Positions 46,439 to 58,736 of a stretch of DNA of 64,000 nt are shown piece after piece (position 1 is the first letter of the stretch; every line of letters starts with the position of its first letter). The notes below the pieces were generated by a model. That model was not told the DNA's origin, ran no database searches, and saw only the letters and a list, made by a program, of their open reading frames with translations. The DNA lies in NCBI GenBank assembly GCA_910586535.1, contig CAJUHS010000002.1:167790-231789 (forward strand). Direction: 5' to 3'. The position numbers and the translations under genes are program-made. This DNA comes from an uncultured Oscillospiraceae bacterium. GTDB lineage: Bacteria; Bacillota; Clostridia; Oscillospirales; Ruminococcaceae.

Positions 46439-47065
46439 ATGGACAGCGATTATTCTACCGTCAGAGATTCGGCGGAAGCTTCCTTTACCGAAAAAAAATC
46501 CGAATTTATCGGACACATCAAACACGTGGAAACGGAAGATGAAGCGGTGGGCTTCATCAACGATATACGCGCAGCCAACAGAAAAGCCAGACATAATGTA
46601 TATGCTTATATCCTACGTTCAGGAAACATTTCCAGATATTCCGACGACGGCGAACCTCAGGGGACGGCGGGAGTTCCTGTGCTGGAGGTACTCCGCAAGG
46701 AAGGACTGACAGACGTTTGCTGTGTGGTCACAAGATACTTCGGAGGTATTCTGCTCGGAGGCGGAGGTCTGGTCAGAGCATATTCACACAGCGCCAAAAT
46801 TGCCGCCGACGCTGCGGAACGGTTTGTTATGTGTCTTTGCAGACCTGTAACAGTTACTGCAGACTATAATCTGTACGGAAAAATCAGCTATGTACTTCCG
46901 GAATTTGAGGTCAAGCTTCTGAATACAGACTACGCCGAAAATATCACGGTAAAAATGCTTGTCAAAAATGATTTTTGCGCTCCGCTTATCGAAAAGCTTA
47001 CCGATATTACCAATGGAAACGCCGCTATTGTGCATGGTGATGAATATTACGATAATTTTGCATGA
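46439..47065 (+). CDS. yigZ: IMPACT/YigZ family protein
   Basis: 208 aa; …KKSEFIGH…RKARHNVYAYIL…DDGEPQGTAG…GGILLGGGGLVRAY signature of the YigZ/IMPACT family. Confidence 0.85.
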   Translation: MDSDYSTVRDSAEASFTEKKSEFIGHIKHVETEDEAVGFINDIRAANRKARHNVYAYILRSGNISRYSDDGEPQGTAGVPVLEVLRKEGLTDVCCVVTRYFGGILLGGGGLVRAYSHSAKIAADAAERFVMCLCRPVTVTADYNLYGKISYVLPEFEVKLLNTDYAENITVKMLVKNDFCAPLIEKLTDITNGNAAIVHGDEYYDNFA

Positions 47066-47189
47066 TAATTTATGCACTAATACAAATTTCATATTAAAAA
47101 GAGGTTTTTTTTCCGCGAAAATTGTATATATAAGCAGATACTATATTTAAATGCGCTACTATAGCATCAGACTTCTCGGAGGTGCGGAT

Positions 47190-48182
47190 ATGACAGTACG
47201 CGAACAAACTGAAATTACAGAACTTGGCATTTTGTGCGAAGACGCCTGTACGTCAAAGGGTACGGGCAGACGCGTCCGCAGTGAATCCAAATGTCCGCTT
47301 AGAACGGAATTTCAGCGTGACAGGGACAGAATACTTCACTGCAATTCGTTCAGGAGACTGAAGCAAAAGACTCAGGTATTCCTCTCCCCAATAGGCGACC
47401 ATTACAGAACACGGCTCACACATACTCTTGAGGTGTCGCAGATCGCGCGTACTATTTCAAGGGCATTCAGGCTTAACGAGGATCTGACCGAAGCTATCGC
47501 CCTTGGACACGACTTGGGACACACTCCTTTCGGTCACTCCGGAGAGGACATTCTTAATGAGATATGCCCTTACGGCTTCAAGCACTACCTTCAAAGCGTC
47601 CGCGTGGTTGACTATATAGAAAACGACGGTGCAGGACTTAATCTTACATACGAAGTAAAAAACGGCATTGCCTGCCATACAAACAAGATTGCCGTTACAA
47701 AAGAGGGCTATATTGTGCGCCTTGCGGATAAGATAGCCTATATTAACCATGACATAGACGACTCAATACGTGCGGGAATGCTTAAAGAAGAAGACCTGCC
47801 AAAGTCAGCAACCGATATTCTTGGTAACAGCAAAAGCAAGCGTATTACAACTCTGATTACTTCTATTGTCAAAAACGGAGTAGAAAATATCCGTATGAGC
47901 GATGAAGTTAAAAAGGCTCATGACGAACTTCGGTCGTTTATGTTCGCAAATGTGTACCAAAATTCCACGGCAAAGGCTGAGGAAGCAAAAGCAAAAGCTA
48001 TGATAGAACGACTTTATATGTACTTTTTGCGGTATCCCGACAAGCTTCCCGACGAATACAAAAAAATTATGGCGAAATTTGACAAGGACAGAGCCGTGTG
48101 CGACTATATCGCCGGCATGACCGACGTTTACTCGGTCAATCTCTACAACGAACTGTTTATACCGAAAGGCTGGAAAAAATAA
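47190..48182 (+). CDS. dgt: dGTPase-like HD-domain triphosphohydrolase
   Basis: GGAGGTG RBS then ATG (MTVREQ…); HD motif (…THTLEVSQIARTI…GHDLGHTPFGH…). Confidence 0.85.
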   Translation: MTVREQTEITELGILCEDACTSKGTGRRVRSESKCPLRTEFQRDRDRILHCNSFRRLKQKTQVFLSPIGDHYRTRLTHTLEVSQIARTISRAFRLNEDLTEAIALGHDLGHTPFGHSGEDILNEICPYGFKHYLQSVRVVDYIENDGAGLNLTYEVKNGIACHTNKIAVTKEGYIVRLADKIAYINHDIDDSIRAGMLKEEDLPKSATDILGNSKSKRITTLITSIVKNGVENIRMSDEVKKAHDELRSFMFANVYQNSTAKAEEAKAKAMIERLYMYFLRYPDKLPDEYKKIMAKFDKDRAVCDYIAGMTDVYSVNLYNELFIPKGWKK

Positions 48183-49933
48183 TGGCGTTTCCCGAGCTGT
48201 TCATTCAGGAGCTCAAACAGAATAATCCTATTGACAGCGTTATGTCGTCATATGTCAGCCTTATACGCCGCGGCAGAGGCTGCGTTTGCCTATGTCCTTT
48301 TCACTCGGAAAAATCACCTTCCTGTACTGTTTTTCTTGACGCTGCCGATCCGCATTTTTACTGCTTCGGCTGCGGGGCAGGCGGGGACGTTATCACCTTT
48401 GTAATGAAAATCGAAAACCTCGGTTATGTTGAAGCTGTAAAATTCCTTGCCGACCGCGCGGGAATGACTATGCCTGAGGATTTGAAAAACGATGAAAGCT
48501 CGCGTATCAAATCACGAATTTTGGAAATAAATCGAACTGCCGCAAGATTTTTTTTCGACACCTTGACCCGATCTCCGGACGGTGAAAAAGGGCGGCGGTA
48601 TTTTGCAGAACGTCAGCTTTCCATGACCACCATTACAAAATATGGGTTGGGCTATGCTCCTAACGGCTGGAGCAATTTGTCCAATCATCTGCGTTCAAAG
48701 GGCTTTTACGACGAGGAGATTATTGCCGCTTTCCTCTGCAAACGCGGAAAAAAAGACGGTGTGTACGATGTTTTCCGGGACCGTGTTATGTTTCCAATTA
48801 TTGACTTGCGCGGAAACGTCATCGCTTTCGGAGGGCGTACTATAGACGGAGACGGTCCGAAATATGTTAACAGCTCCGACACGCCGGTATTCAAGAAAAG
48901 CCGTAATCTTTTTTCTCTTAATTTTGCAAAAAAATCGGAGGAAAAACGGCTTATCCTTGCTGAGGGTTATATGGACGTTATCGCCATAAATCAGGCTGGC
49001 TTTGAAAACGTTGTTGCAACTCTCGGTACGGCTCTCACGCAAGAACAGGCGCGGCTCATGTCCCAGTACGCAGAGGAGATAATAATTGCCTACGACTCGG
49101 ACGGAGCCGGACAGAACGCTACTCACAAGGCTATCAACCTGCTTTCCGAGGTAGGACTGCGTACCAAGATAATTAAAATGGATGGAGCCAAAGACCCTGA
49201 CGAGTACATAAAAAAATTTGGCGCACTCCGCTTCAAACAGCTTCTGGACAAATCGGGCGGCGCAATTGAGTTTGAACTTGAAAAATGCCGAGCGGGACTG
49301 GATACCGAAACTGACGAGGGCAGGATTGAGTACTTGAAGCGATGCGTAAACATTCTCGCGAACATCACCTCCCCTATTGAGCGCGAGGTCTACGCCGGCA
49401 GACTTGCGGAAGCTAACAGGGTGAACAAGGAAATGATTGTTCAACAGGTAAACGGTCTTATAAAAAAGAGACAAAATCAGTCAAAGAACAAAGAATGGAC
49501 TGAAATAAGAACGTTTCAAAAACAAATGCGTACGAATCCCGATTCCTACCGAAATCCAAAGGAATACAAAGCTGAGATCGGTATAATCGCCTATCTTGCG
49601 GCAAATCCGGACGATGCGGATTATATTTCATCAAGGATTGCTTCGGAACAATTTGCGACAGATTTCAACAAAAAAGTCTACTCCGTTATGCTGAAAAAGA
49701 TAAAAAATTCATCTTTTTCCGATATTCTTTCACTACAAAGTGAATTTAGCGCCGATGAAATGGGTAAAATAACCGAAATTGAAGTCAATAGCAAAGATGT
49801 AAATATTAATAAAACTGCTCTTGATGATTTTATTAATATTCTTATTTCATCAGCCGACAATTACGAGAGCGCAAAGGATATGTCGGATGACGAATTTTTA
49901 AAATATATTCAGAATTTAAAAAGAAAGAAGTAG
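48182..49933 (+). CDS. dnaG: DNA primase
   Basis: Start overlaps the dgt stop (TAATG); zinc-ribbon CxxH…CxxC (CLCPFHSEKSPSCTV…CFGCG), Toprim (EGYMDV…DSDGAG), C-terminal helicase-binding domain. Confidence 0.9.
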   Translation: MAFPELFIQELKQNNPIDSVMSSYVSLIRRGRGCVCLCPFHSEKSPSCTVFLDAADPHFYCFGCGAGGDVITFVMKIENLGYVEAVKFLADRAGMTMPEDLKNDESSRIKSRILEINRTAARFFFDTLTRSPDGEKGRRYFAERQLSMTTITKYGLGYAPNGWSNLSNHLRSKGFYDEEIIAAFLCKRGKKDGVYDVFRDRVMFPIIDLRGNVIAFGGRTIDGDGPKYVNSSDTPVFKKSRNLFSLNFAKKSEEKRLILAEGYMDVIAINQAGFENVVATLGTALTQEQARLMSQYAEEIIIAYDSDGAGQNATHKAINLLSEVGLRTKIIKMDGAKDPDEYIKKFGALRFKQLLDKSGGAIEFELEKCRAGLDTETDEGRIEYLKRCVNILANITSPIEREVYAGRLAEANRVNKEMIVQQVNGLIKKRQNQSKNKEWTEIRTFQKQMRTNPDSYRNPKEYKAEIGIIAYLAANPDDADYISSRIASEQFATDFNKKVYSVMLKKIKNSSFSDILSLQSEFSADEMGKITEIEVNSKDVNINKTALDDFINILISSADNYESAKDMSDDEFLKYIQNLKRKK

Positions 49934-49948
49934 GAAAGGATGACCTTT

Positions 49949-51028
49949 ATGTCAAATAACAAACGGACTATCGAAAGCCTTATGGAGCAGGGCAAGGCAA
50001 GCGGCAAGCTGTCCGCCAAGGAAATTACAGACGTGCTGGAAGAGCTTGAATACGATGTCGATCAAATGGAGGCTTTCTACGACAGCTGCTCAAATCTCAA
50101 CATCGAGGTCATTGAGGACTTCAGCATCGATACCGATCTGTCGCTCCCTCTGGACGCTACTGCGGACGATCTTGAACTTTCTCTCTCCACCGAAGGTATT
50201 GCTATTGACGACCCTGTTAAAATCTATCTGAAAGAAATTGGACGAGTTCCCCTTCTTACCGCCGAAGAGGAAATAGAGCTTGCGGAACGTATGGCTCAGG
50301 GTGATATCAAGGCAAGAAAGCGTCTTGCAGAAGCTAACCTTCGTCTCGTTGTTTCCATTGCAAAACGTTACGTAGGACGTGGTATGCAGTTCCTTGACCT
50401 TATACAGGAGGGAAACCTTGGTCTTATCAAGGCTGTTGAAAAGTTTGACCATACAAAAGGCTTTAAATTTTCCACATATGCCACATGGTGGATAAGACAA
50501 GCTATTACAAGAGCAATCGCCGATCAGGCTCGTACTATCCGTATTCCGGTGCACATGGTTGAGACCATCACAAAAGTGAAAAAAGCTTCGAGCCAGCTTC
50601 TGCACATGAACGGTCACGACCCATCCCCCGAGGAGATCGCGGAATTCACAGAAATGCCGGTGGAACGCGTCCGCGAAATAATGCGTATCGCACAGGATCC
50701 CGTTTCTCTTGAAACTCCTATCGGCGAGGAGGAGGACAGTCATCTGGGCGATTTCATTCCCGATGACGATGCGCCTGCTCCTGCAGAAGCCGCTTCTCTT
50801 ATACTGCTCAAAGAACAGCTTGGAGAAGTGCTTTCCACTCTTACCGAGCGGGAAGAAAAAGTCCTCAGGCTGCGCTTCGGTCTGGAAGACGGCAGAAGCC
50901 GTACCCTTGAGGAAGTGGGCAAAGAATTCAACGTTACACGTGAACGCATCCGCCAGATTGAGGCTAAAGCTCTCAGAAAGCTGAGACACCCCAGCAGAAG
51001 CAAAAAGGTCAAGGATTTTCTTGACTGA
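49949..51028 (+). CDS. rpoD: RNA polymerase primary sigma factor (sigma-70/SigA)
   Basis: Regions 1.2-4.2 present ([17 protein letters not shown]…, [18 protein letters not shown], …[24 protein letters not shown]…); AGGAAAGG RBS. Confidence 0.95.
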
Positions 51029-51110
51029 CAGCTGATCCGGAAGCTCGTAAAAATAAAATGAAAGGAGTAATTTCCGCCGCCTGTTTTGCTGCGGCTGAAA
51101 TAGCATTATT

Positions 51111-51512
51111 ATGCAAATCACATTGGAATCAGATTACGCTGTAAGAATAGTCAGCTGCCTTGCTGAATCAAAGCGGCGCATGGACGCAAAAACAATTTCA
51201 GAGCAAACCTGCGTAACTCTTAGATTTGCTCTTAAAATTCTGCGCAAGCTTGTGGCAAGCGGCATTATAAAATCTTTTAAGGGCACTCAGGGCGGATACG
51301 AGCTTGCTAAAACACCTCAGGAAATTTCTCTTAAGGACGTTATTGAAACCGTAGAGGGCAGATACTTCTTAAGCAAATGTCTTTCAGACAGCTATGACTG
51401 TAACCGCGGTATGTCCGGGATATGCCGCTTTCAAAAAGTGTACGATGAAATTTCCTCCGATGTGGAAAAAAAGTTGGCCTCATACACATTTGATATGTTC
51501 ATTGATACATAA
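51111..51512 (+). CDS. Rrf2 family transcriptional regulator (three-Cys, probable Fe-S type)
   Basis: 133 aa; Rrf2 HTH N-terminus and CLSDSYDCNRGMSGIC cysteine triad. Confidence 0.8.
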   Translation: MQITLESDYAVRIVSCLAESKRRMDAKTISEQTCVTLRFALKILRKLVASGIIKSFKGTQGGYELAKTPQEISLKDVIETVEGRYFLSKCLSDSYDCNRGMSGICRFQKVYDEISSDVEKKLASYTFDMFIDT

Positions 51513-51531
51513 TCCTTAAAACAAAACTAAT

Positions 51532-51573
51532 GGGATAGAAACGAAATGCTGTTTCTATCCCATTTTTGATTTT
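51532..51573. terminator. Terminator (GGGATAGAAAC stem), near-identical to the one at 38914
   Basis: GGGATAGAAACgaaatgctGTTTCTATCCC followed by ATTTTTGATTTT. Confidence 0.65.
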
Positions 51574-51577
51574 AAGA

Positions 51578-53359
51578 TCAGCCGTAATATGCGGTGATGG
51601 TAATATCGCTCTTAATATTTTCAAGGCTCTTGTCCCAACCAAGGAAACGGTTTCCGTTGCTGTCGGTTATAGGCCAGAACGGAGGCTCTGCGGTCTGTCC
51701 GTCAGGAGTTTTTACAGTATAGAACTGACCGTCTATTATAAAAGTGACAGTATGATACTCGCCTGTTGCAAATACCGCTGTGATAGTGGTATCAATTATA
51801 ATATTGTCAAGTGACTTATCCCAGCCTATAAAGCGGTTTCCATTAACATCTGTGCTGGGTATATACGGAGGAATAACAGCTCCCCCATGTTCAACCTGAA
51901 CTGGGTAAGTGTCGTTTTCCACAACAAATGTAACCGTATGAGTACTTGCCTGTTCAAGGATCGCAGAAATAACAATATCTTCAGTAATATTTATAAAATC
52001 CTTGTCCCAGCCTTTAAAGATGTAACCCTCCACATTTATAGTTGACGGCAGATTGGCAGATTTCCCGTGTTCAACCTGAATAGTATTCGACTTGTTTCCG
52101 ATCACTACCGTTACAGTATGCATGATTTCATTCGAATCGGAGGCAAATTCGTTGAACTGAGCTGTAATAATCCTATCCTCTGTAATATTGTCAAACGAAC
52201 CGTCCCAGCCGATAAATTCCAGACCTTCTATAACCGGATCTTCAGGTTTAACGGCATTTCCGCCATGGATTATTTCCTGAATAGTTTCTTCGCCGTCTAC
52301 AACAATTGTGACCGTATGGTAAACCCCGCTGTTATCCGAGGTTTCCGCAGGAACAGTTTCTGTGGCAGGTACAGTAGTAGTAACAGGCGCCGCCGTTGTT
52401 GTAACTATCGGAGCAGCTGTTGTGTATCCGGGAAGAGTTGTTTCTGTAGGAGCGGGCGCAGTTGTGACAATAGGCTCGGCAGTCTGAATGGTATCGGAGC
52501 TGTCAGTTACCGTCTCGTCCGGCTTCTGCTCAATAGGAGGCGCCGCCTCATTGTCATTGCCGTCTGCCTTTTTATCGTATGCTGCTTTTAATTCTTCTGG
52601 AGTATAGGGAAACTCTCCGCCTATAATTGCGGCAATGGTTATTAGATTTTTCAGATCGGAAGCGGAAAGCTCCTCCAAATCAAAATCCAAATTTAGCGCT
52701 TCAAAGGAAGGACCGTCTTCAGAGACTATCCGTCCCCATTTTTTAGCTATCTGAAGCTCCGCGTTATTTACAGGATTTCCGGCCGCGTCATAAAGCTGAA
52801 TACTGTTATCGCCCATAAAGGTGTACAGGTCGGTATAGGACATAAACTCGTTAGTACTGTAGGAAATTTTTGACACACTTTTATCTGTCGAGATCATAGA
52901 GTCAGCAGTCCTTATGTTTATTGAGCAGCGATCCTCGTCCGCAAAATTTCCTATTACCGAACCGCTTCTCAGAAAAAGCTCTCCGTTTTCCTTGCCGTTA
53001 AATTCTCCCGACACAACGACCTGGGAATCCGAACAGAGAACAATATAATTTTTCTCTGAATTTTTCTTTCCTTTATAGGTAAGTATGCATGAGGAATCCG
53101 CTCCGAGAGTAACAATATCACCGTTTTTAAGCATATCACCGCTTGCAGAGCTTGTTACGGAATCGGAATTTGTAACGCTTACGCTTCCCGAAGCTGACGA
53201 TATGTACAGTCCGTATGAGGAGCCTCCGCCTCCGGTTACAACAACCAGTGTAATAACTACCGCGATCAGCGCACATCCTCCGAGGATAAGCGGTATCTTA
53301 AAATTATTTATAAAGTCTTTCATAAATGTTATGCCCGATCCGGTTATAGTCCGGATCAT
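51578..53359 (-). CDS. Membrane-anchored protein with FecR-like domain, Thr/Pro-rich linker and four C-terminal Flg_new (Listeria-Bacteroides) repeats
   Basis: 593 aa; N-terminal TM; four about 60-aa repeats each containing G[W]D…F…NITED…I.A.F and a FKGW/FIGW/FLGW motif typical of Flg_new/InlB-B-repeat domains. Confidence 0.6.
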   Translation of the reverse strand: MIRTITGSGITFMKDFINNFKIPLILGGCALIAVVITLVVVTGGGGSSYGLYISSASGSVSVTNSDSVTSSASGDMLKNGDIVTLGADSSCILTYKGKKNSEKNYIVLCSDSQVVVSGEFNGKENGELFLRSGSVIGNFADEDRCSINIRTADSMISTDKSVSKISYSTNEFMSYTDLYTFMGDNSIQLYDAAGNPVNNAELQIAKKWGRIVSEDGPSFEALNLDFDLEELSASDLKNLITIAAIIGGEFPYTPEELKAAYDKKADGNDNEAAPPIEQKPDETVTDSSDTIQTAEPIVTTAPAPTETTLPGYTTAAPIVTTTAAPVTTTVPATETVPAETSDNSGVYHTVTIVVDGEETIQEIIHGGNAVKPEDPVIEGLEFIGWDGSFDNITEDRIITAQFNEFASDSNEIMHTVTVVIGNKSNTIQVEHGKSANLPSTINVEGYIFKGWDKDFINITEDIVISAILEQASTHTVTFVVENDTYPVQVEHGGAVIPPYIPSTDVNGNRFIGWDKSLDNIIIDTTITAVFATGEYHTVTFIIDGQFYTVKTPDGQTAEPPFWPITDSNGNRFLGWDKSLENIKSDITITAYYG

Positions 53360-53368
53360 CTCCTTTCA

Positions 53369-54505
53369 TTAATTTTCAGCTTCGGAAGTTCCTGCGGTAA
53401 CAGTAGACTCATCACTGAAATTATCGTCTGTCTCTGCAAACCAGTCTTCATAGCCGTCGGTGCCGGTATTGGTATTTCCTGTTATCTCCCACCATTTTAC
53501 GCCCGAGTAGGTAGTATATACATGGGTCTTCAGAGTTGTACCCAGCGTTCCGTATGACTCATCGTCCGTTTCAGTTTCCTCAATAGGCGGAGAAGTTGTC
53601 ACGACAGTAGTTTCTGTGGCAGTTACTGTAGTTGTTACAGTAGTATCGGAGGAATCATCTGTAACCGATTCGGTTGCCGTTTCCTGCTTGAGCCGTTCGT
53701 CCCTTACAATCTTATAGGCATGATTTAGTTCCTCAGGAGTAAACGCAAGCTCCTTTTCAGCGCACGCCCGTATAAGCTCTCCGAGCGTCGAATCGTTAAG
53801 GGTAAGCAGATCGAAGCTGTAATTAAGATATCCGTATTTGCACATTTCCTCCGAAGTAAGCATTTGAGCCGCAGTACGTTCAATAAGCAGCATAGGCAGT
53901 TCATAGGGCTGCTTATCTGCATCGTAAAGCTGGAGAGAGACCGTGCCGTCAAAATTTTGCACCTGAGTTATCATAACATCCTTATAACCCATATACTCCT
54001 TTACATAGTCAAATTCAGCCCGAAATGCCGTTCCCTTTACCGAAACGGAGCTGTTAGGAGTTTTAAGTGAAAACGTGGCGTTTTTCTTCAGCTTGTTGTT
54101 AAGCCGGCAAATTACCGCTCCTCTGGTCAGGTTTACGGAAATGTCGCCTTTTGAGTCAACATCGGTAAAATATATGTATACTGTGGACTCCGGTTCTATC
54201 CAGACAAATTTATCCCTGTCAACACTTATCCGCACAAAGCTGTCCTCTGCAGTAGTAATAATGTCTCCGCTTTTCAGTGCAAACTGCTTATCCGCGTTAA
54301 GCCGTCTGCTGTCGCGGGAAATAAAAGCCGTACCGCTGATATCGGTAACAATAAGCTGTCTTGCCACGTCTCCGCCAAAATACAGGCTTAAAACTATAGC
54401 TCCCGCAAGAACCATAAGTATACTTATAACGCCGATCATTATAAGCTTTAAATTTTCGGAAAGGATCTTTATCAAATCACAGCCGCCTTTCAAAACTGCA
54501 AACAT
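53369..54505 (-). CDS. Paralog of the preceding gene: membrane-anchored FecR-like domain protein with Thr-rich acidic tail, no Flg_new repeats
   Basis: 378 aa; aligned blocks with the neighbour (SLQLYDADKQPYELP vs SIQLYDAAGNPVNNAEL; FTPEELNHAYK vs YTPEELKAAYD). Confidence 0.55.
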   Translation of the reverse strand: MFAVLKGGCDLIKILSENLKLIMIGVISILMVLAGAIVLSLYFGGDVARQLIVTDISGTAFISRDSRRLNADKQFALKSGDIITTAEDSFVRISVDRDKFVWIEPESTVYIYFTDVDSKGDISVNLTRGAVICRLNNKLKKNATFSLKTPNSSVSVKGTAFRAEFDYVKEYMGYKDVMITQVQNFDGTVSLQLYDADKQPYELPMLLIERTAAQMLTSEEMCKYGYLNYSFDLLTLNDSTLGELIRACAEKELAFTPEELNHAYKIVRDERLKQETATESVTDDSSDTTVTTTVTATETTVVTTSPPIEETETDDESYGTLGTTLKTHVYTTYSGVKWWEITGNTNTGTDGYEDWFAETDDNFSDESTVTAGTSEAEN

Positions 54506-54729
54506 TTTTCTATGTCTGATATCCCGCGTAAATTTCTTCGGGTCTTAATAATCAGAATGACATACGGATAAACTTTTAACATTTTCAGCCGCACACACAA
54601 TTACACTTTATTATACCACACATCTGTTTTTTTGTCAAAGCATTTTAGAGATTTTGTCGATTTTCAGAAAACCAACACATTTGACTCGCCTAGAAAGCTT
54701 ATCGCTTAAAATTTCCGAGAAAAGAAAAA

Positions 54730-54764: not shown

Positions 54765-55150
54765 TGGCAAAGCTTAACGCAGTCAGCGAAAAGCTTCGGT
54801 ATTGCGACTAAGCCGATAAGCCGGGTTTTGTCGTGTGCGGAAATCTATCTGGGCGAATCGTCGCCGAAACGCTCAAGCCGTCGTTGCAATGCGTCTGCCG
54901 AGCAGACAATAACGCATTGTTCCAAAATGACGTTGCATCGGACAGGGTTTACATGGCAGCGCAGTCTCCTGCGCTCCGGTGAGCTCTTACCTCGCCTTTC
55001 CACCCTTGCCGGAAAACCGGCGGTATATCTCTGTTGCACTATCCCTAAGGTCGCCCTCGGCTGCCGTTAGCAGCTGTCCTGCTCTATGATGCCCGGACTT
55101 TCCTAACGCAGACGCGCAATGCGCATAAAGCGTTCAACCGCATAGCTTAC
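54765..55150 (-). ncRNA. rnpB: RNase P RNA (ribozyme component of RNase P), bacterial type
   Basis: The minus strand carries both universally conserved P4 blocks. The first is …GTTAGGAAAGTCCGGGCATC… (plus-strand 55085-55105 reverse-complemented). The second is …ACGACAAAACCCGGCTTATCGGC… (plus-strand 54803-54825). 5' and 3' ends can pair (GGUUGAACGC / GCGUUAAGCU, P1). TTGACA-17-TATACT promoter at 55161-55189 (minus) and a downstream terminator. No ORF of substance; about 385 nt. Confidence 0.85.
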
Positions 55151-55160
55151 TCGCATTATA

Positions 55161-55270: not shown

Positions 55271-56146
55271 TTATTTGAACAGATCTCCGTTTTCGACCCA
55301 CAGATCCAAAGAGCTGGGATCTCCCGCCGCAGCCGCTCTGAGGACAATGCTTGTGTCCTTCATTGGAAGTGAACTGCAATTTTTTCCCACGCTTATATCA
55401 CCGTCGGCAGTTTTAAAGCTGCCGCGCTCAAAGCTCATATGAGAAACATTGCTGTTTGCCGATTTATCCGAAATAACACTCTTCACAACGGAAGCAAGCT
55501 TCTTTGACGGGAAACCATACTGTGATTTAGCATTGAACCGCAAATTAGACAACTCGCTTGCAACAGCGTCTCTCATCTTTCTGTTCATGCCCATAATATT
55601 TCCTCTTCTGTCCACAGAAAGCTCGGAAATATCCTGTCCGAAGCACTTTTCCAAAGCTTCTGCAACAACGGAATAATAAGCCTCGGTCATTTTGCCGTTT
55701 AGTATTTTAGAAGCGTTCGCAATACTGTCAATATCTACCTTTTTCATTGATTTGTTCAAAGCGTTCTGAACTCCGCTGAGATACTTTTCGTCGGAAATTT
55801 CCGTTATTTTCGCTTCGCCGCTGTTTACGTCATAATCAAACTTAAAACTGATATTTTCAGGTACGCCCTCGTCAGAAAGATTTTTCTTCATAGCATCGTC
55901 AAAATTTCCGCAGGACTTTGAAAGAGTCAGCATAGACTTAGCCGCCTTTACACGGTAATCGCCAAGACTTGCGGAAGTACCGAGTTCTTTCAGCGAATCG
56001 CTTGTAATGTTTGAGAAACGATCATATTTAAAGCCGCTGTTGTTCTTAACACCCGACGTCTGCTTAAGCGTTTTGCGGGAAGAACGATTTGCTGACAGTC
56101 CCAGCGCACTGATACGGCGGCGCATACCGCTAATATTCTTTAACAT
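55271..56146 (-). CDS. Hypothetical soluble protein (about 290 aa), third gene of the DUF1538/P-II operon
   Basis: AAAAGGGG RBS before the ATG at 56146 (MLKNISGMRRR…); Ser/Lys-rich, no recognisable domain or TM. Confidence 0.45.
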   Translation of the reverse strand: MLKNISGMRRRISALGLSANRSSRKTLKQTSGVKNNSGFKYDRFSNITSDSLKELGTSASLGDYRVKAAKSMLTLSKSCGNFDDAMKKNLSDEGVPENISFKFDYDVNSGEAKITEISDEKYLSGVQNALNKSMKKVDIDSIANASKILNGKMTEAYYSVVAEALEKCFGQDISELSVDRRGNIMGMNRKMRDAVASELSNLRFNAKSQYGFPSKKLASVVKSVISDKSANSNVSHMSFERGSFKTADGDISVGKNCSSLPMKDTSIVLRAAAAGDPSSLDLWVENGDLFK

Positions 56147-56240
56147 ATAAAAAGACCCCTTTTCGTCATATATAATATATATCGGCACAAATTCAAAAAA
56201 CTTTAGGAAAAATAACTACTTTTCCTAAAGTTTTTTGAAA

Positions 56241-56921
56241 CTATTTTACAATATCTTCTATTCTGACGCTTGTTCCCGCAAGGCCAAGCGCACTGTCAAC
56301 CGGGAGCGAGAAGCATATTCCGCGGCTTTCGGTTAGGATTCCAGCCGCGTCAAGGATATTCTGCATGACCCTTTCCCTGTCTTCCCTGCCGACAACAATG
56401 AGTACTACGTCCTTTTCAGGCTGAATTGATATGCCCAGAAATTTTGCCGCTTCTTCGCCGCCAAGTCCCAGACCGTGCAAAAGTGTTCCTCCGCGTGCCC
56501 CTGCCGCTTTGGAAGCCTCTTTGACAGCCTCAAATCCGCCTCGGTTCACAATAGTTATTATCATTTCGTATTTGGCTTCGGACATTTCGTTATCTCCCTC
56601 CGTTTCGGGTTTAGTACCGTTTATCGCAAACGCCGTTCCTGACGCTCCGCTGATAGGTACTGTAAAGGCTATACCCCTGCCTGCCTCGCTGAGAGACAGC
56701 TTTTTATTAAATGTATCGTAAAGCTTCATCACCCGTCCGTTTGGTACAAACACCGCGGCAATAACTTTTTTGTTGTCACCGAGACCAAGATAATCGAGCA
56801 TAGCCGAGTCAGCCGAACCGTGACCGTGAAGCAGGAAACGGCACGGAAGATTCTCCCGCTCAAGAATGCTGTGTACGTCCTGCGCGCGTCTATAGTCCGC
56901 TATCAGAAACATTGCTTTCAC
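56241..56921 (-). CDS. Tandem P-II-like (GlnB superfamily fold) protein, two about 100-aa repeats
   Basis: Two halves each with a P-II-like pattern (GARGGTLLHGLGLGGEE… / …EAGRGIAFTVPI). Probable GTG start with GGAGAG RBS; located immediately downstream of the DUF1538 gene. Confidence 0.55.
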   Translation of the reverse strand: MKAMFLIADYRRAQDVHSILERENLPCRFLLHGHGSADSAMLDYLGLGDNKKVIAAVFVPNGRVMKLYDTFNKKLSLSEAGRGIAFTVPISGASGTAFAINGTKPETEGDNEMSEAKYEMIITIVNRGGFEAVKEASKAAGARGGTLLHGLGLGGEEAAKFLGISIQPEKDVVLIVVGREDRERVMQNILDAAGILTESRGICFSLPVDSALGLAGTSVRIEDIVK

Positions 56922-57003
56922 TTTCCGGCTCTCCTTTCTCGTGCGTGGTATTTTTACTTTTAGATTAAATCCCCTAACTATCAAAATTCATTTGCATCTG
57001 TCG

Positions 57004-58575
57004 TTATTTCTGAGTACCCACATCAAGGCTCGACTTAGTATCCGTAAAAACAGCCATGTCGCAGCTCTCGTCCAAAACGATCGGGAATACCTGTCCGCTC
57101 TCGCATATACGGTCGGACCTGACAGTCTTAAACCTGCTGATAAGACCTAATATCTGGATGGTCAGCAAAGGAGTCATAGCTACCATTGCAACGATCCCGA
57201 ATGCGTCGGTGGAAATATTTCCTCCTCTGGCAGCACAGGCTCCCATAGCAAGAGGAAGCAGAAATGTGGCAGTTAATGGTCCGGAGGCAACGCCGCCGGC
57301 GTCAAACGCTACCGAAGTAAAAATAGGCGGTACAAGCAAGCTTATAATAAGAGCAAGAACATAGCCGGGTACCAAAAACCATAAAATGGATACTCCAGTG
57401 AGCACCCTAACCATGGATATACCGACCGAAGCGGCAACGCCCAGCGCAAGGCTTATCCCAAGAGAACGCCCGGAAATACGTCCTTCGGTAATTGTCTCAA
57501 CCTGCTGCTTCAGCACGTGTACCGCAGGCTCTGCCGATACGATAAAGTAGCCGATCAGCGCACCTATAGGGACAAGCAGCCAGGAGCCTCTTCCTCCCGC
57601 AAGATTTTCTCCTATGTGCTGACCGACAGGCATAAACCCCACGTTTGCCCCTGTCAGAAACAGTACCAGTCCTACATATGTGAATCCAAGTCCCACAAAA
57701 ATTTTAAGCATGGTTTTCGTGTCAAGCTTGAGAAATATTACATCAAAAACAAGAAAGAAAACCACAATAGGAATAAATGCTGAAGCCACGTCCTCTATGT
57801 AATGCGGAAAAGCCCGCAGAAATTCGCGGAAACTTTCAGAAATAATATCATAATTTTCAGGATGAGTAAGAGTCTGTTCGGCAGTTTCGGTACTGTTCAG
57901 AGCGCCAAGCAAAAGCACGGTAAGGATAGGTCCGATAGAACACATAGCAACCAGGCCGAAGCTGTCCTCCGCAGAGGTCTTATCGCCGCGGATAGATGAA
58001 AGTCCAAGACCGAGAGCCATTATGAACGGCACAGTAATAGGTCCGGTGGTAACTCCGCCCGAATCAAAGGCAGCCGGTATAAAGCTCGGAGAAATAAGCG
58101 GTGAACAGGCAAAAATAAATATCAGCGCATAAAAAGCTATGAATACCGCCGATATTTTTACCTGCATAAAAATACGCAGAAATGCAAGGGTAAGGAAAAT
58201 TCCCACGCCAACGCCCACCGACCATATCATGATCTGTGTATCGACAATGGGAGTCTGCTCCGCAAGAACCTTTAGGTCAGGCTCTGCAACGGTAACAAGC
58301 ACTCCTATCAGAAAACAAACCGGAAGGATAAAGGCAATTTTTCTGGACTTTGTAAGACGTGCTCCGATCTTTTCGCCGATAATTATCATAGACGTATCTG
58401 CTCCAAGCGTAAACATTCCAATGCCTACAATGAGCAAGATAGTTCCGACAAAAAAGGAAAAGAACATCTCGCCGCTGAGCGGAACGACCGTTACCGACAG
58501 CAAAAAAACCACAGCCGCCACGGGAAGCACAGCTCCCAAAGATTCTTTTATCTTTTCAATAAGGTTTTTCTGCAT
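57004..58575 (-). CDS. Fused double-DUF1538 integral membrane protein (putative permease)
   Basis: About 520 aa; two homologous halves, each about 6 TM with a conserved …VAEPD/SAEPA… motif (TVAEPDLKVLAEQ and IVSAEPAVHVLKQQ). GGAAAGGAG RBS before the ATG at 58575. Confidence 0.65.
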   Translation of the reverse strand: MQKNLIEKIKESLGAVLPVAAVVFLLSVTVVPLSGEMFFSFFVGTILLIVGIGMFTLGADTSMIIIGEKIGARLTKSRKIAFILPVCFLIGVLVTVAEPDLKVLAEQTPIVDTQIMIWSVGVGVGIFLTLAFLRIFMQVKISAVFIAFYALIFIFACSPLISPSFIPAAFDSGGVTTGPITVPFIMALGLGLSSIRGDKTSAEDSFGLVAMCSIGPILTVLLLGALNSTETAEQTLTHPENYDIISESFREFLRAFPHYIEDVASAFIPIVVFFLVFDVIFLKLDTKTMLKIFVGLGFTYVGLVLFLTGANVGFMPVGQHIGENLAGGRGSWLLVPIGALIGYFIVSAEPAVHVLKQQVETITEGRISGRSLGISLALGVAASVGISMVRVLTGVSILWFLVPGYVLALIISLLVPPIFTSVAFDAGGVASGPLTATFLLPLAMGACAARGGNISTDAFGIVAMVAMTPLLTIQILGLISRFKTVRSDRICESGQVFPIVLDESCDMAVFTDTKSSLDVGTQK

Positions 58576-58736
58576 AAACCGGCTCCTTTCCTCATTTATT
58601 TTACCCGTTAAATAAAAAAACGCATATATGCTGACAGGCAAAACCATAAAGGCAAGCCGCTATCCGTTGTATCCACTACCACGAAATTACTGCTTCCCTT
58701 ATGAAAAAGTTACTGTCGGCATAAAGCGCAAAACTT

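What the first reader, a model, noticed from the sequence alone, without database searches (positions are those of the whole stretch)
51578..54505. Tandem paralogous membrane-anchored FecR-like proteins, one with four Flg_new repeats
Two adjacent minus-strand genes share an architecture. Each has a short cytoplasmic N-terminus, a single TM, an extracytoplasmic FecR-like beta-sandwich region (aligned blocks such as SLQLYDADKQPYELP / SIQLYDAAGNPVNNAEL), a conserved PEEL[KN]xAY segment, and a Thr/Pro/Asp-rich linker. The downstream gene additionally carries four well-conserved about 60-aa Flg_new/InlB-B-type repeats (…FxGWDxxxxNITEDxxIxAxF). Unlike classical FecR-type anti-sigma factors, there is no cytoplasmic anti-sigma N-domain. 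They sit directly downstream (convergent) of the rpoD-Rrf2 unit. This looks like a duplicated surface-exposed sensor/adhesin pair of unknown function.
Basis: partly seen in the sequence, partly recalled or inferred. Interest (0 to 1): 0.55.

Follow-up and report, generated by a model that had tools for sequence, protein, structure and literature searches.

The report
Paired membrane-anchored FecR-fold surface proteins
Two neighbouring genes of an uncultured gut Clostridia bacterium encode sister membrane-anchored surface proteins that reuse the sensor fold of iron-signalling FecR regulators but lack the part that controls a sigma factor; the pair is real and conserved, its function is untested, and it is moderately interesting.

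The parts
54610..54638 (-). Promoter-like site of the A-B operon: TTGACA, 17 nt, TATAAT, with an extended -10 TG (12/12 consensus match)
   Evidence: sequence read. The ~130-nt leader has no Rfam match and no unusual fold.
53369..54505 (-). Gene A ORF (378 aa). The likely true CDS is 53369-54475 (368 aa), starting at TTG codon 11 (MIKILSENLK...), which is preceded by AAAGGCGG
   Evidence: P0001 (368 aa, 99% id) and most orthologues start at this position
54377..54445 (-). A transmembrane helix (aa 21-43), followed by the conserved SLYFGGD
   Evidence: Kyte-Doolittle maximum 2.95; AF2 helix 8-43; conservation
53816..54355 (-). A extracytoplasmic FecR-fold beta domain (aa 51-230)
54029..54034 (-). 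A Gly158-Thr159, the position homologous to the FecR G181-T182 / FoxR G191-T192 self-cleavage site
   Evidence: translates to GT; G 34/35 and T 35/35 in the A family; register from the family HMM against E. coli FecR and from Pfam coordinates; cleavage chemistry from PMC12036975, PMC9249621, PMC11637429
53669..53794 (-). A two-helix segment (aa 238-279) that includes PEELNHAY
   Evidence: AF2 helices 238-250 and 257-279, pLDDT ~89; aligned with B
53540..53668 (-). A Thr/Glu/Asp-rich disordered stalk (aa 280-322)
   Evidence: composition; pLDDT ~30; variable length in orthologues
53432..53536 (-). A conserved C-terminal peptide TLKTHVYTTYSGVKWWEITGNTNTGTDGYEDWFAE; the WWEI core is kept in ~40%-identical A-type proteins
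   Evidence: not a Flg_new relic
51578..53359 (-). Gene B ORF (593 aa). The likely true CDS is 51578-53323 (581 aa), starting at M13 (MKDF...)
53234..53296 (-). B transmembrane helix (aa 22-42). The Cys within it is not conserved, so it is not a lipobox
52688..53212 (-). B FecR-fold beta domain (aa 50-224), missed by Pfam. The Gly-Thr position is occupied by Lys160-Ser161 ([KNDE]-S across the family, Ser 39/39)
52565..52663 (-). B two-helix segment (aa 233-265) that includes PEELKAAY
52325..52564 (-). B Thr/Ala/Pro-rich disordered stalk (aa 266-345)
51581..52324 (-). B four Flg_new / InlB-B-type repeats (aa 346-405, 412-470, 472-533, 534-593)
51529..51564 (.). Bidirectional terminator hairpin shared by gene B and the convergent Rrf2 gene

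Best explanation
SHOWN. This is a bicistronic operon with its own consensus sigma-70 promoter and a terminator. It encodes two paralogous bitopic membrane proteins. Each has a ~10-residue cytoplasmic tail, one TM helix, a membrane-proximal FecR-fold beta domain capped by two helices, a disordered Thr/Pro-rich stalk, and a distal element. In B the distal element is four beta-grasp-like InlB-B (Flg_new) repeats. In A it is a short conserved Trp/Tyr-rich peptide (...KWWEITGN...YEDWF). Neither protein has an anti-sigma domain or the FecR C-terminal domain, and no sigma factor is a recurrent neighbour. The A-then-B order is kept down to ~40% identity in unrelated genomic contexts. A retains the ancestral FecR Gly-Thr self-cleavage signature and B has lost it. 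INFERRED. Topology is N-in/C-out. The two FecR-fold modules, and possibly the conserved TM segments, associate at the outer face of the membrane. The stalks (about 45 and 80 residues) carry the distal elements through the cell wall. B's repeats bind an external ligand or partner. A acts as the partner subunit: its Gly-Thr bond may self-cleave as in FecR/FoxR, leaving the stalk held non-covalently and therefore releasable. Its WWEI tip may contact the wall, B's repeats or the same ligand. Overall I read this as a wall-spanning heteromeric cell-surface binding (adhesin-like or receptor-like) complex, not a sigma-factor switch. Confidence in the anatomy is about 0.9. Confidence in this mechanism is about 0.4.
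Against: There is no direct evidence that A and B interact; multimer modelling was not available. No ligand is known for any Flg_new repeat. The strongly conserved cytoplasmic tail and TM of A (KILSENLKL...SLYFGGD) and the invariant GT site are features more expected of a signalling device than of a passive adhesin. Single-copy relatives sit in CHASE2-cyclase clusters, which suggests an ancestral sensory role. Whether the hydrophobic segment is a stable anchor or a cleaved signal peptide was not tested; A contains an A-G-A motif inside it. Self-cleavage at GT is inferred from sequence only.
Confidence: 0.4

Rival explanations
1. The pair is an extracytoplasmic sensory accessory to a membrane signalling protein encoded elsewhere in the genome, most plausibly a CHASE2-domain nucleotide cyclase or kinase. 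The FecR-fold modules would dock on the partner's extracytoplasmic domain. Ligand binding or force on the stalks or repeats, possibly with dissociation of the self-cleaved C-terminal fragment of A, would then modulate second-messenger output.
For: In 4 of the 4 sampled Lachnospiraceae-type loci, the GT-bearing single-copy relatives lie in co-directional clusters: CHASE2+Guanylate_cyc, then AP_endonuc_2, then in some loci GAF-HD, then TM-FecR. FecR-domain/CHASE2 linkage is also reported in Burkholderia (PMC5192318) and Campylobacterota (PMC9239204). The GT site is invariant and A's TM and tail are highly conserved. Other distant relatives lie near GGDEF, MCP and PilZ genes.
Against: No CHASE2 or cyclase homologue occurs in the 64-kb window or within about 8 kb of any of ~30 A/B loci. 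No signalling gene recurs next to the pair. The pair has a consensus, constitutive-looking promoter in a housekeeping region. The rest of the host genome could not be searched.
Confidence: 0.27
2. A and B are two independent surface proteins. They are adjacent only because of an old tandem duplication and do not interact: B is an adhesin, and A is a degenerate or differently specialised copy.
For: The wider family consists mostly of single genes. The C-terminal parts of A and B differ entirely.
Against: Strict A-then-B order and tight spacing are retained down to ~40% identity across changing contexts. In the close group of representatives the features are complementary and fixed: GT with a WWEI tip in A-type proteins, and no GT with repeats in B-type proteins. 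Both genes are under clear purifying selection, with many invariant columns.
Confidence: 0.2
3. The pair are classical FecR-type anti-sigma or sigma-regulator proteins that control an ECF sigma factor by regulated proteolysis.
Against: The cytoplasmic segment is only ~10 residues and there is no DUF4880 or other anti-sigma domain. There is no FecR_C/STN-like domain. No TonB-dependent transducer is possible in a monoderm Clostridia lineage (established knowledge). The L023 sigma has its own DUF4367 partner and occurs in only 1 of ~27 loci.
Confidence: 0.03

Closest known systems
FecR / PupR / FoxR cell-surface-signalling sigma regulators (Proteobacteria) and Bacteroidales FecR-type anti-sigma factors (e.g. 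BDI_1681, PDB 4m0h)
   Different: No cytoplasmic anti-sigma domain (DUF4880). No FecR_C/STN-like C-terminal domain; two helices and a long stalk take its place. No ECF sigma or TonB-dependent transducer partner. The host is Gram-positive-type. B has lost the Gly-Thr motif.
FecR-domain proteins linked to CHASE2 sensors (Burkholderia LysM-FecR protein/COG4254 beside a CHASE2 histidine kinase; Campylobacterota CHASE2 adenylate cyclase clusters; the Clostridia clusters seen here in L034/L038/L039/L040)
   Same: FecR domain without an anti-sigma domain, located outside the cytoplasm. The Clostridia cluster members share the whole N-terminal tail-TM-FecR-helices module with A and B (E down to 1e-27 in the profile search) and keep GT.
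   Different: A and B form a tandem pair with no CHASE2, cyclase or kinase gene nearby. Their C-termini are specialised (Flg_new repeats; WWEI peptide).
Leptospiral FecR-domain surface lipoproteins/adhesins (Lsa33, LipL45, Lsa19)
   Same: FecR domain used in a surface or envelope protein with no sigma-regulatory part. These are the best NCBIfam hits of A (E=1e-10 and 7.5e-6).
   Different: Scores are far below the family cutoffs (41 against 420 bits). Those proteins are lipoproteins of a diderm, whereas A and B have an N-terminal TM helix and no lipobox. The rest of the architecture is unrelated.
Internalin-type and other Gram-positive surface proteins with InlB B-repeats (Flg_new, PF09479) or MucBP-like beta-grasp domains
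   Same: B's four repeats have the InlB B-repeat fold (2y5p, rmsd 1.8 A, 31% id) and are arranged in tandem at the distal end of a surface protein.
   Different: There is no LRR/internalin domain and no LPXTG, GW or other C-terminal wall anchor. Anchoring is by an N-terminal TM helix plus a FecR-fold module.
N-terminal retention/anchoring module of LapA-like RTX adhesins (MpIBP RI, PDB 5ix9)
   Different: The similarity is fold-level only. LapA-type modules plug an outer-membrane TolC-like pore in diderms, and no such pore exists here.

Membership tests
FecR-type anti-sigma / sigma-regulator of cell-surface signalling | N-terminal cytoplasmic sigma-binding domain of ~60-85 aa (Pfam DUF4880) | tested here: not met
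   A and B have ~10 residues (at most 20) before the TM helix and no DUF4880 hit at E<=1. E. coli FecR run in the same way gives DUF4880 at aa 15-56.
FecR-type anti-sigma / sigma-regulator of cell-surface signalling | Single TM helix with an extracytoplasmic FecR domain (PF04773) | tested here: met
FecR-type anti-sigma / sigma-regulator of cell-surface signalling | C-terminal FecR_C / STN-like domain that binds the signalling domain of a TonB-dependent transducer | tested here: not met
   Neither A nor B has a FecR_C (PF16344) hit, whereas E. coli FecR has one at aa 247-307. The AF2 models show two helices followed by disorder.
FecR-type anti-sigma / sigma-regulator of cell-surface signalling | Co-encoded ECF sigma factor and TonB-dependent transducer | tested here: not met
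   Neighbour census of 29 loci: only RpoD (6 loci) and one ECF sigma with its own DUF4367 partner (L023). Upstream in the window is rnpB.
FecR-type anti-sigma / sigma-regulator of cell-surface signalling | Self-cleavage at a conserved Gly-Thr bond in the FecR domain | not testable with these tools
   The motif is present and invariant in A (G158-T159; 34/35 and 35/35). It is absent in B ([KNDE]-S). The register agrees with FecR G181-T182. Whether cleavage happens needs a protein experiment.
Pfam Flg_new (PF09479, Listeria-Bacteroides / InlB B-repeat) | HMM score above the gathering threshold, and the beta-grasp-like fold | tested here: met
Clostridia N-terminally anchored FecR-domain family (unnamed; annotated only as 'FecR domain-containing protein') | Short tail, TM helix, FecR fold and a helical segment at the extreme N-terminus, with a variable C-terminus | tested here: met
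   The profile of the shared module finds 3100 cluster representatives (861 at E<=1e-10), nearly all matching from residue ~1 to ~250. FecR was detected in 47 of 60 sampled. Named members come from Roseburia, Agathobacter, Clostridium and Oscillospiraceae.
FecR-domain partner of a CHASE2 sensor | Adjacent CHASE2-domain cyclase or kinase gene | tested here: not met
   tblastn with CHASE2-cyclase proteins finds nothing in the window or in any A/B locus. The rest of the genome was not available.
Leptospiral Lsa33 / LipL45 lipoproteins | NCBIfam score above the cutoff, and a lipoprotein signal | tested here: not met
   41.4 bits against a cutoff of 420, and 25.2 against 350. There is no conserved lipobox Cys.
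Sortase-anchored (LPXTG) surface proteins | C-terminal LPXTG motif, hydrophobic segment and charged tail | tested here: not met
   A ends ...TAGTSEAEN and B ends ...ITITAYYG. Neither has a C-terminal hydrophobic segment.

The most novel reading that the evidence does not exclude
The FecR fold, including its Gly-Thr autoproteolytic bond, has been re-used in monoderm Clostridia as a non-covalent, releasable (force- or ligand-sensitive) tether at the base of a wall-spanning stalk, independent of sigma factors. In this clade it would work as an obligate heterodimer. The cleavable subunit is A, whose WWEI tip docks into the beta2/loop groove of the partner's InlB-B repeats. The non-cleaving, ligand-binding subunit is B. 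Ligand engagement would then detach A's C-terminal fragment, a shedding or mechanosensing logic like that of FecR's CTD release, SEA domains or GPS domains.
Probability: 0.12. Interest if true: 0.7.

Novelty: new variant of a known kind. Interest (0 to 1): 0.4.

Why it matters
FecR-fold domains are understood almost only as the periplasmic half of Gram-negative sigma-factor switches. This pair, and the roughly 3100-cluster Clostridia family it belongs to, show the same fold, often with the self-cleavage motif intact, anchored directly to the membrane of gut Firmicutes with no sigma-binding part. It carries variable surface domains, and in single-copy members it sits beside CHASE2 nucleotide cyclases. 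That gives a concrete, testable entry point to two open questions: what CHASE2 sensors detect, and what FecR domains do outside iron signalling. The A/B pair also offers a natural contrast between a GT-retaining and a GT-lost paralogue for testing what the self-cleavage is for. For gut ecology, B-type proteins are candidate adhesins or receptors of abundant uncultured Oscillospiraceae. The practical importance stays modest until a ligand or phenotype is known.

Tried and rejected
(1) ECF sigma nearby: rejected. The neighbour census of 29 loci found none recurrent.
(2) Functional link to rpoD/Rrf2 or rnpB: rejected. The flanks vary.
(3) Regulatory RNA in the 5' leader: none. The only hit in the Rfam E-value scan is the terminator hairpin matching mir-633 at 28.6 against 90 bits, and the leader's fold z-score is 0.64.
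(4) A's C-terminal peptide as a degenerate Flg_new repeat: rejected (hhalign probability about 0).
(5) B as a lipoprotein (LILGGC): rejected because the Cys is not conserved.
(6) Sequence search of the PDB with the A family: no relatives. The search with alignment A4 returned only low-complexity linker artefacts.
(7) afdb50 Foldseek: the library was unavailable.
(8) FoxR self-cleavage paper PMC4424355: not held, so the residue requirements at the GT site, such as whether Ser can replace Thr, could not be checked.
(9) Literature on Gram-positive TM-FecR proteins: nothing found.
(10) CHASE2 or cyclase gene near the pair: none.
(11) Cluster names for distant relatives were mostly absent.
Full report
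OBSERVATION. Pfam finds FecR (PF04773) in A at 34.5 bits (cutoff 24) and Flg_new (PF09479) in B at 54.6 bits (cutoff 27). B has no FecR hit. The two proteins align over about 298 residues at 25% identity, E=4e-13. Comparing the orthologue alignment of A (35 sequences) with that of B (39 sequences) gives hhalign probability 99.5%, E=2.3e-23 over 250 columns. That span covers the tail, the TM helix, the beta domain and the PEEL..AY helices. Each protein has a single hydrophobic segment (A aa 21-43, B aa 22-42). B's four ~60-aa repeats are 36-53% identical to one another, z=11-17 against shuffles.

GENE MODELS AND EXPRESSION SIGNALS. Orthologue alignments place the real starts at the TTG of codon 11 in A (MIKILSENLK..., preceded by AAAGGCGG) and at M13 in B (MKDF...). 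The cytoplasmic tails are therefore only about 10 residues. A perfect sigma-70-type promoter with an extended -10 (TTGACA, 17 nt, TGnTATAAT) lies at 54638-54610. A bidirectional terminator at 51529-51564 is shared with the convergent Rrf2 gene. The ~130-nt leader has no Rfam match and no unusual structure. Directly upstream is RNase P RNA (54801-55153, minus, 254 bits), not a regulator gene. RpoD and Rrf2 are confirmed by Pfam.

WHAT IS MISSING. When E. coli FecR is run through the same Pfam search, it shows DUF4880 (the sigma-binding N-domain, aa 15-56), FecR (110-202) and FecR_C (247-307). A and B have neither DUF4880 nor FecR_C. Neither has a C-terminal wall anchor. B's LILGGC is not a lipobox because the Cys is not conserved.

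THE PAIR IS A UNIT AND ITS NEIGHBOURHOOD IS INCIDENTAL. Close homologues of A (94 clusters, ~360-400 aa) and of B (267 clusters at E<=0.001; the best 120 are almost all ~570-615 aa) come only from uncultured Oscillospiraceae, Ruminococcus and Clostridia gut MAGs. One-genome-per-species contigs yield 26 species, from mouse, goat, deer, rabbit and termite guts. In every locus with room downstream, B follows A within ~30-150 nt. The flanks differ between loci: an HD gene and HydF in L001, SASP and ABC permeases in L003, AIM24 in L005. I clustered the four ORFs on each side in 29 loci. This shows only lineage-restricted synteny: a YiiX-like protein in 18 loci, an HD protein in 14, GH25 in 9, HydF in 8, and RpoD/Rrf2 in only 5-6. 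Apart from RpoD, sigma-70 domains appear in one locus only (L023), as an ECF sigma with its own DUF4367 partner. The FecR-type sigma-signalling reading is therefore not supported.

DIVERGENCE BETWEEN THE PARALOGUES. FecR self-cleaves between Gly181 and Thr182, and FoxR between Gly191 and Thr192, by an N-O acyl shift. The two fragments stay associated (PMC12036975, PMC9249621, PMC11637429). A family HMM aligns FecR's LTALGTEFTV with the family signature maVrGTvfrv, which corresponds to A's SVKG158T159AFR. That sequence score is weak (E=0.017 for a single comparison), but the Pfam coordinates agree. In the A family, Gly is present in 34/35 and Thr in 35/35 sequences. In the B family the same columns are [K/N/D/E] followed by an invariant Ser (39/39). 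Among 150 representatives of the wider family, 111 have GT. Within the close group, A-type proteins have GT, lack F.GW repeats and often carry a WWE[IL] tail, whereas B-type proteins have lost GT and carry 1-4 F.GW repeats. A's stalk ends in a conserved peptide (THxYTTYSGIKWWEITGNTNTGTDxYEDWF). Its WWEI core survives at the tip of much longer stalks in ~40%-identical A-type proteins, and in each case a B-type gene follows (L005, L036, L037). This peptide is not a Flg_new relic, has no Pfam match and is modelled as disordered. Its role is unexplained.

THE WIDER FAMILY. An exhaustive profile search with the shared module finds 3100 cluster representatives at E<=1e-3 and 861 at E<=1e-10. Nearly all match from about residue 1 to 250, and total lengths range from ~230 to 1200 aa. 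Of 60 distant members sampled, 47 are recognised as FecR and 8 also carry Flg_new. Named members come from Roseburia, Agathobacter, Clostridium and Oscillospiraceae, and all are annotated only as 'FecR domain-containing protein'. I found no literature on such Gram-positive proteins. These relatives are single genes. In 4 of the 4 Lachnospiraceae-type loci sampled they close a co-directional cluster that opens with a CHASE2 + class III cyclase gene and an AP_endonuc_2 gene, and two of the loci also have a GAF-HD gene (L034, L038, L039, L040). Two other relatives lie near GGDEF, MCP or PilZ genes. FecR-domain/CHASE2 linkage has been noted in Burkholderia and Campylobacterota (PMC5192318, PMC9239204). 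No CHASE2 or cyclase homologue lies in the window or within ~8 kb of any A/B pair. The rest of the host genome could not be examined.

INTERPRETATION. The anatomy is secure. For mechanism, I favour (confidence ~0.4) a heteromeric, wall-spanning surface complex. The paralogous FecR-fold modules would pair at the membrane and the Thr/Pro stalks would cross the wall. B's repeats would bind an external partner, and A would be a possibly self-cleaving partner subunit. The main rival (0.27) is a sensory accessory to an unlinked CHASE2-type signalling protein, as the ancestral gene context suggests. The next rival is two independent surface proteins (0.2). Classical anti-sigma function is effectively excluded (0.03). 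None of these can be settled without interaction data, a cleavage assay and the full genome.

NOVELTY AND SCORE. Both domains are known, and databases already label these proteins as FecR-domain and InlB-B-repeat proteins. Three things are new. One is the conserved A/B cassette with its complementary, fixed divergence: GT and a WWEI tip in one paralogue, no GT and repeats in the other. The second is the recognition of a large anti-sigma-less, N-terminally anchored FecR family in Clostridia. The third is that family's CHASE2-cyclase linkage. I rate this a new variant of a known kind, interest 0.4. The most novel reading that the evidence does not exclude is a sigma-independent, self-cleaving, releasable tether or mechanosensor. 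I give it probability 0.12, and interest 0.7 if true.

Noticed in passing
window 54801-55153 (-): RNase P RNA, bacterial class A (254 bits, full length), lies directly upstream of the A-B operon. It has its own promoter-like site at 55189-55161 (TTGACA, 17 nt, TATACT, with TG).
   Followed up: partly
L034:800-7206, L038:1-6101, L039:1-6419, L040:2395-6416: Single-copy GT-bearing relatives of the module, from Lachnospiraceae-type genomes, close a co-directional cluster. The order is CHASE2 + class III nucleotide cyclase, AP_endonuc_2, in two loci GAF-HD (HD_5), in two loci an unknown 428-465-aa protein, then TM-FecR. This looks like an uncharacterised Gram-positive version of the FecR-domain/CHASE2 linkage reported in Burkholderia and Campylobacterota.
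   Followed up: partly
window 53432-53536 (-): Conserved C-terminal peptide of A (TLKTHVYTTYSGVKWWEITGNTNTGTDGYEDWFAE). The WWEI core is retained at the tip of the stalk in ~40%-identical homologues. It has no Pfam match, is modelled as disordered and is not related to Flg_new. Its function is unexplained.
   Followed up: partly
window 53337-53357: Perfect 7-bp-stem hairpin (GATCCGG-N7-CCGGATC) between the stop codon of A and the likely start (M13) of B. It overlaps the first codons of the mechanical ORF of B and may influence translation of B.
   Followed up: no
L023:11095-12337: In this one locus only, an ECF-type sigma factor (179 aa; Sigma70_r2 and r4_2) and a DUF4367 protein lie directly downstream of gene B. 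This is a self-contained sigma/anti-sigma-like pair and is not conserved with the cassette.
   Followed up: yes
window 55271-56188 (-): A 305-aa ORF with no Pfam hit lies upstream of rnpB. Homologues occupy a similar upstream position in six other pair-carrying loci (seven including the window).
   Followed up: partly
window 56241-58647 (-): Adjacent P-II-like (247 aa) and DUF1538 membrane protein (547 aa, two DUF1538 copies) genes. This looks like a conserved two-gene unit of unknown transport or regulatory function.
   Followed up: no
window 46439-51512 (+): A housekeeping block: YigZ/UPF0029, an HD-domain dGTPase-like gene, dnaG, rpoD, then an Rrf2-family regulator. The mechanical dnaG ORF (GTG at 48098) overlaps the preceding gene by 85 nt, so its true start is probably further downstream (around MAFPELF...).
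   Followed up: no
L012:6299-7204 and homologues (18 loci): A ~270-300-aa membrane-anchored protein with no Pfam hit (by eye, a YiiX-like permuted papain fold) often lies 1-2 genes upstream of the cassette, together with an HD protein and a membrane-anchored GH25 muramidase. It is probably lineage synteny, but these are cell-wall-related neighbours.
   Followed up: partly
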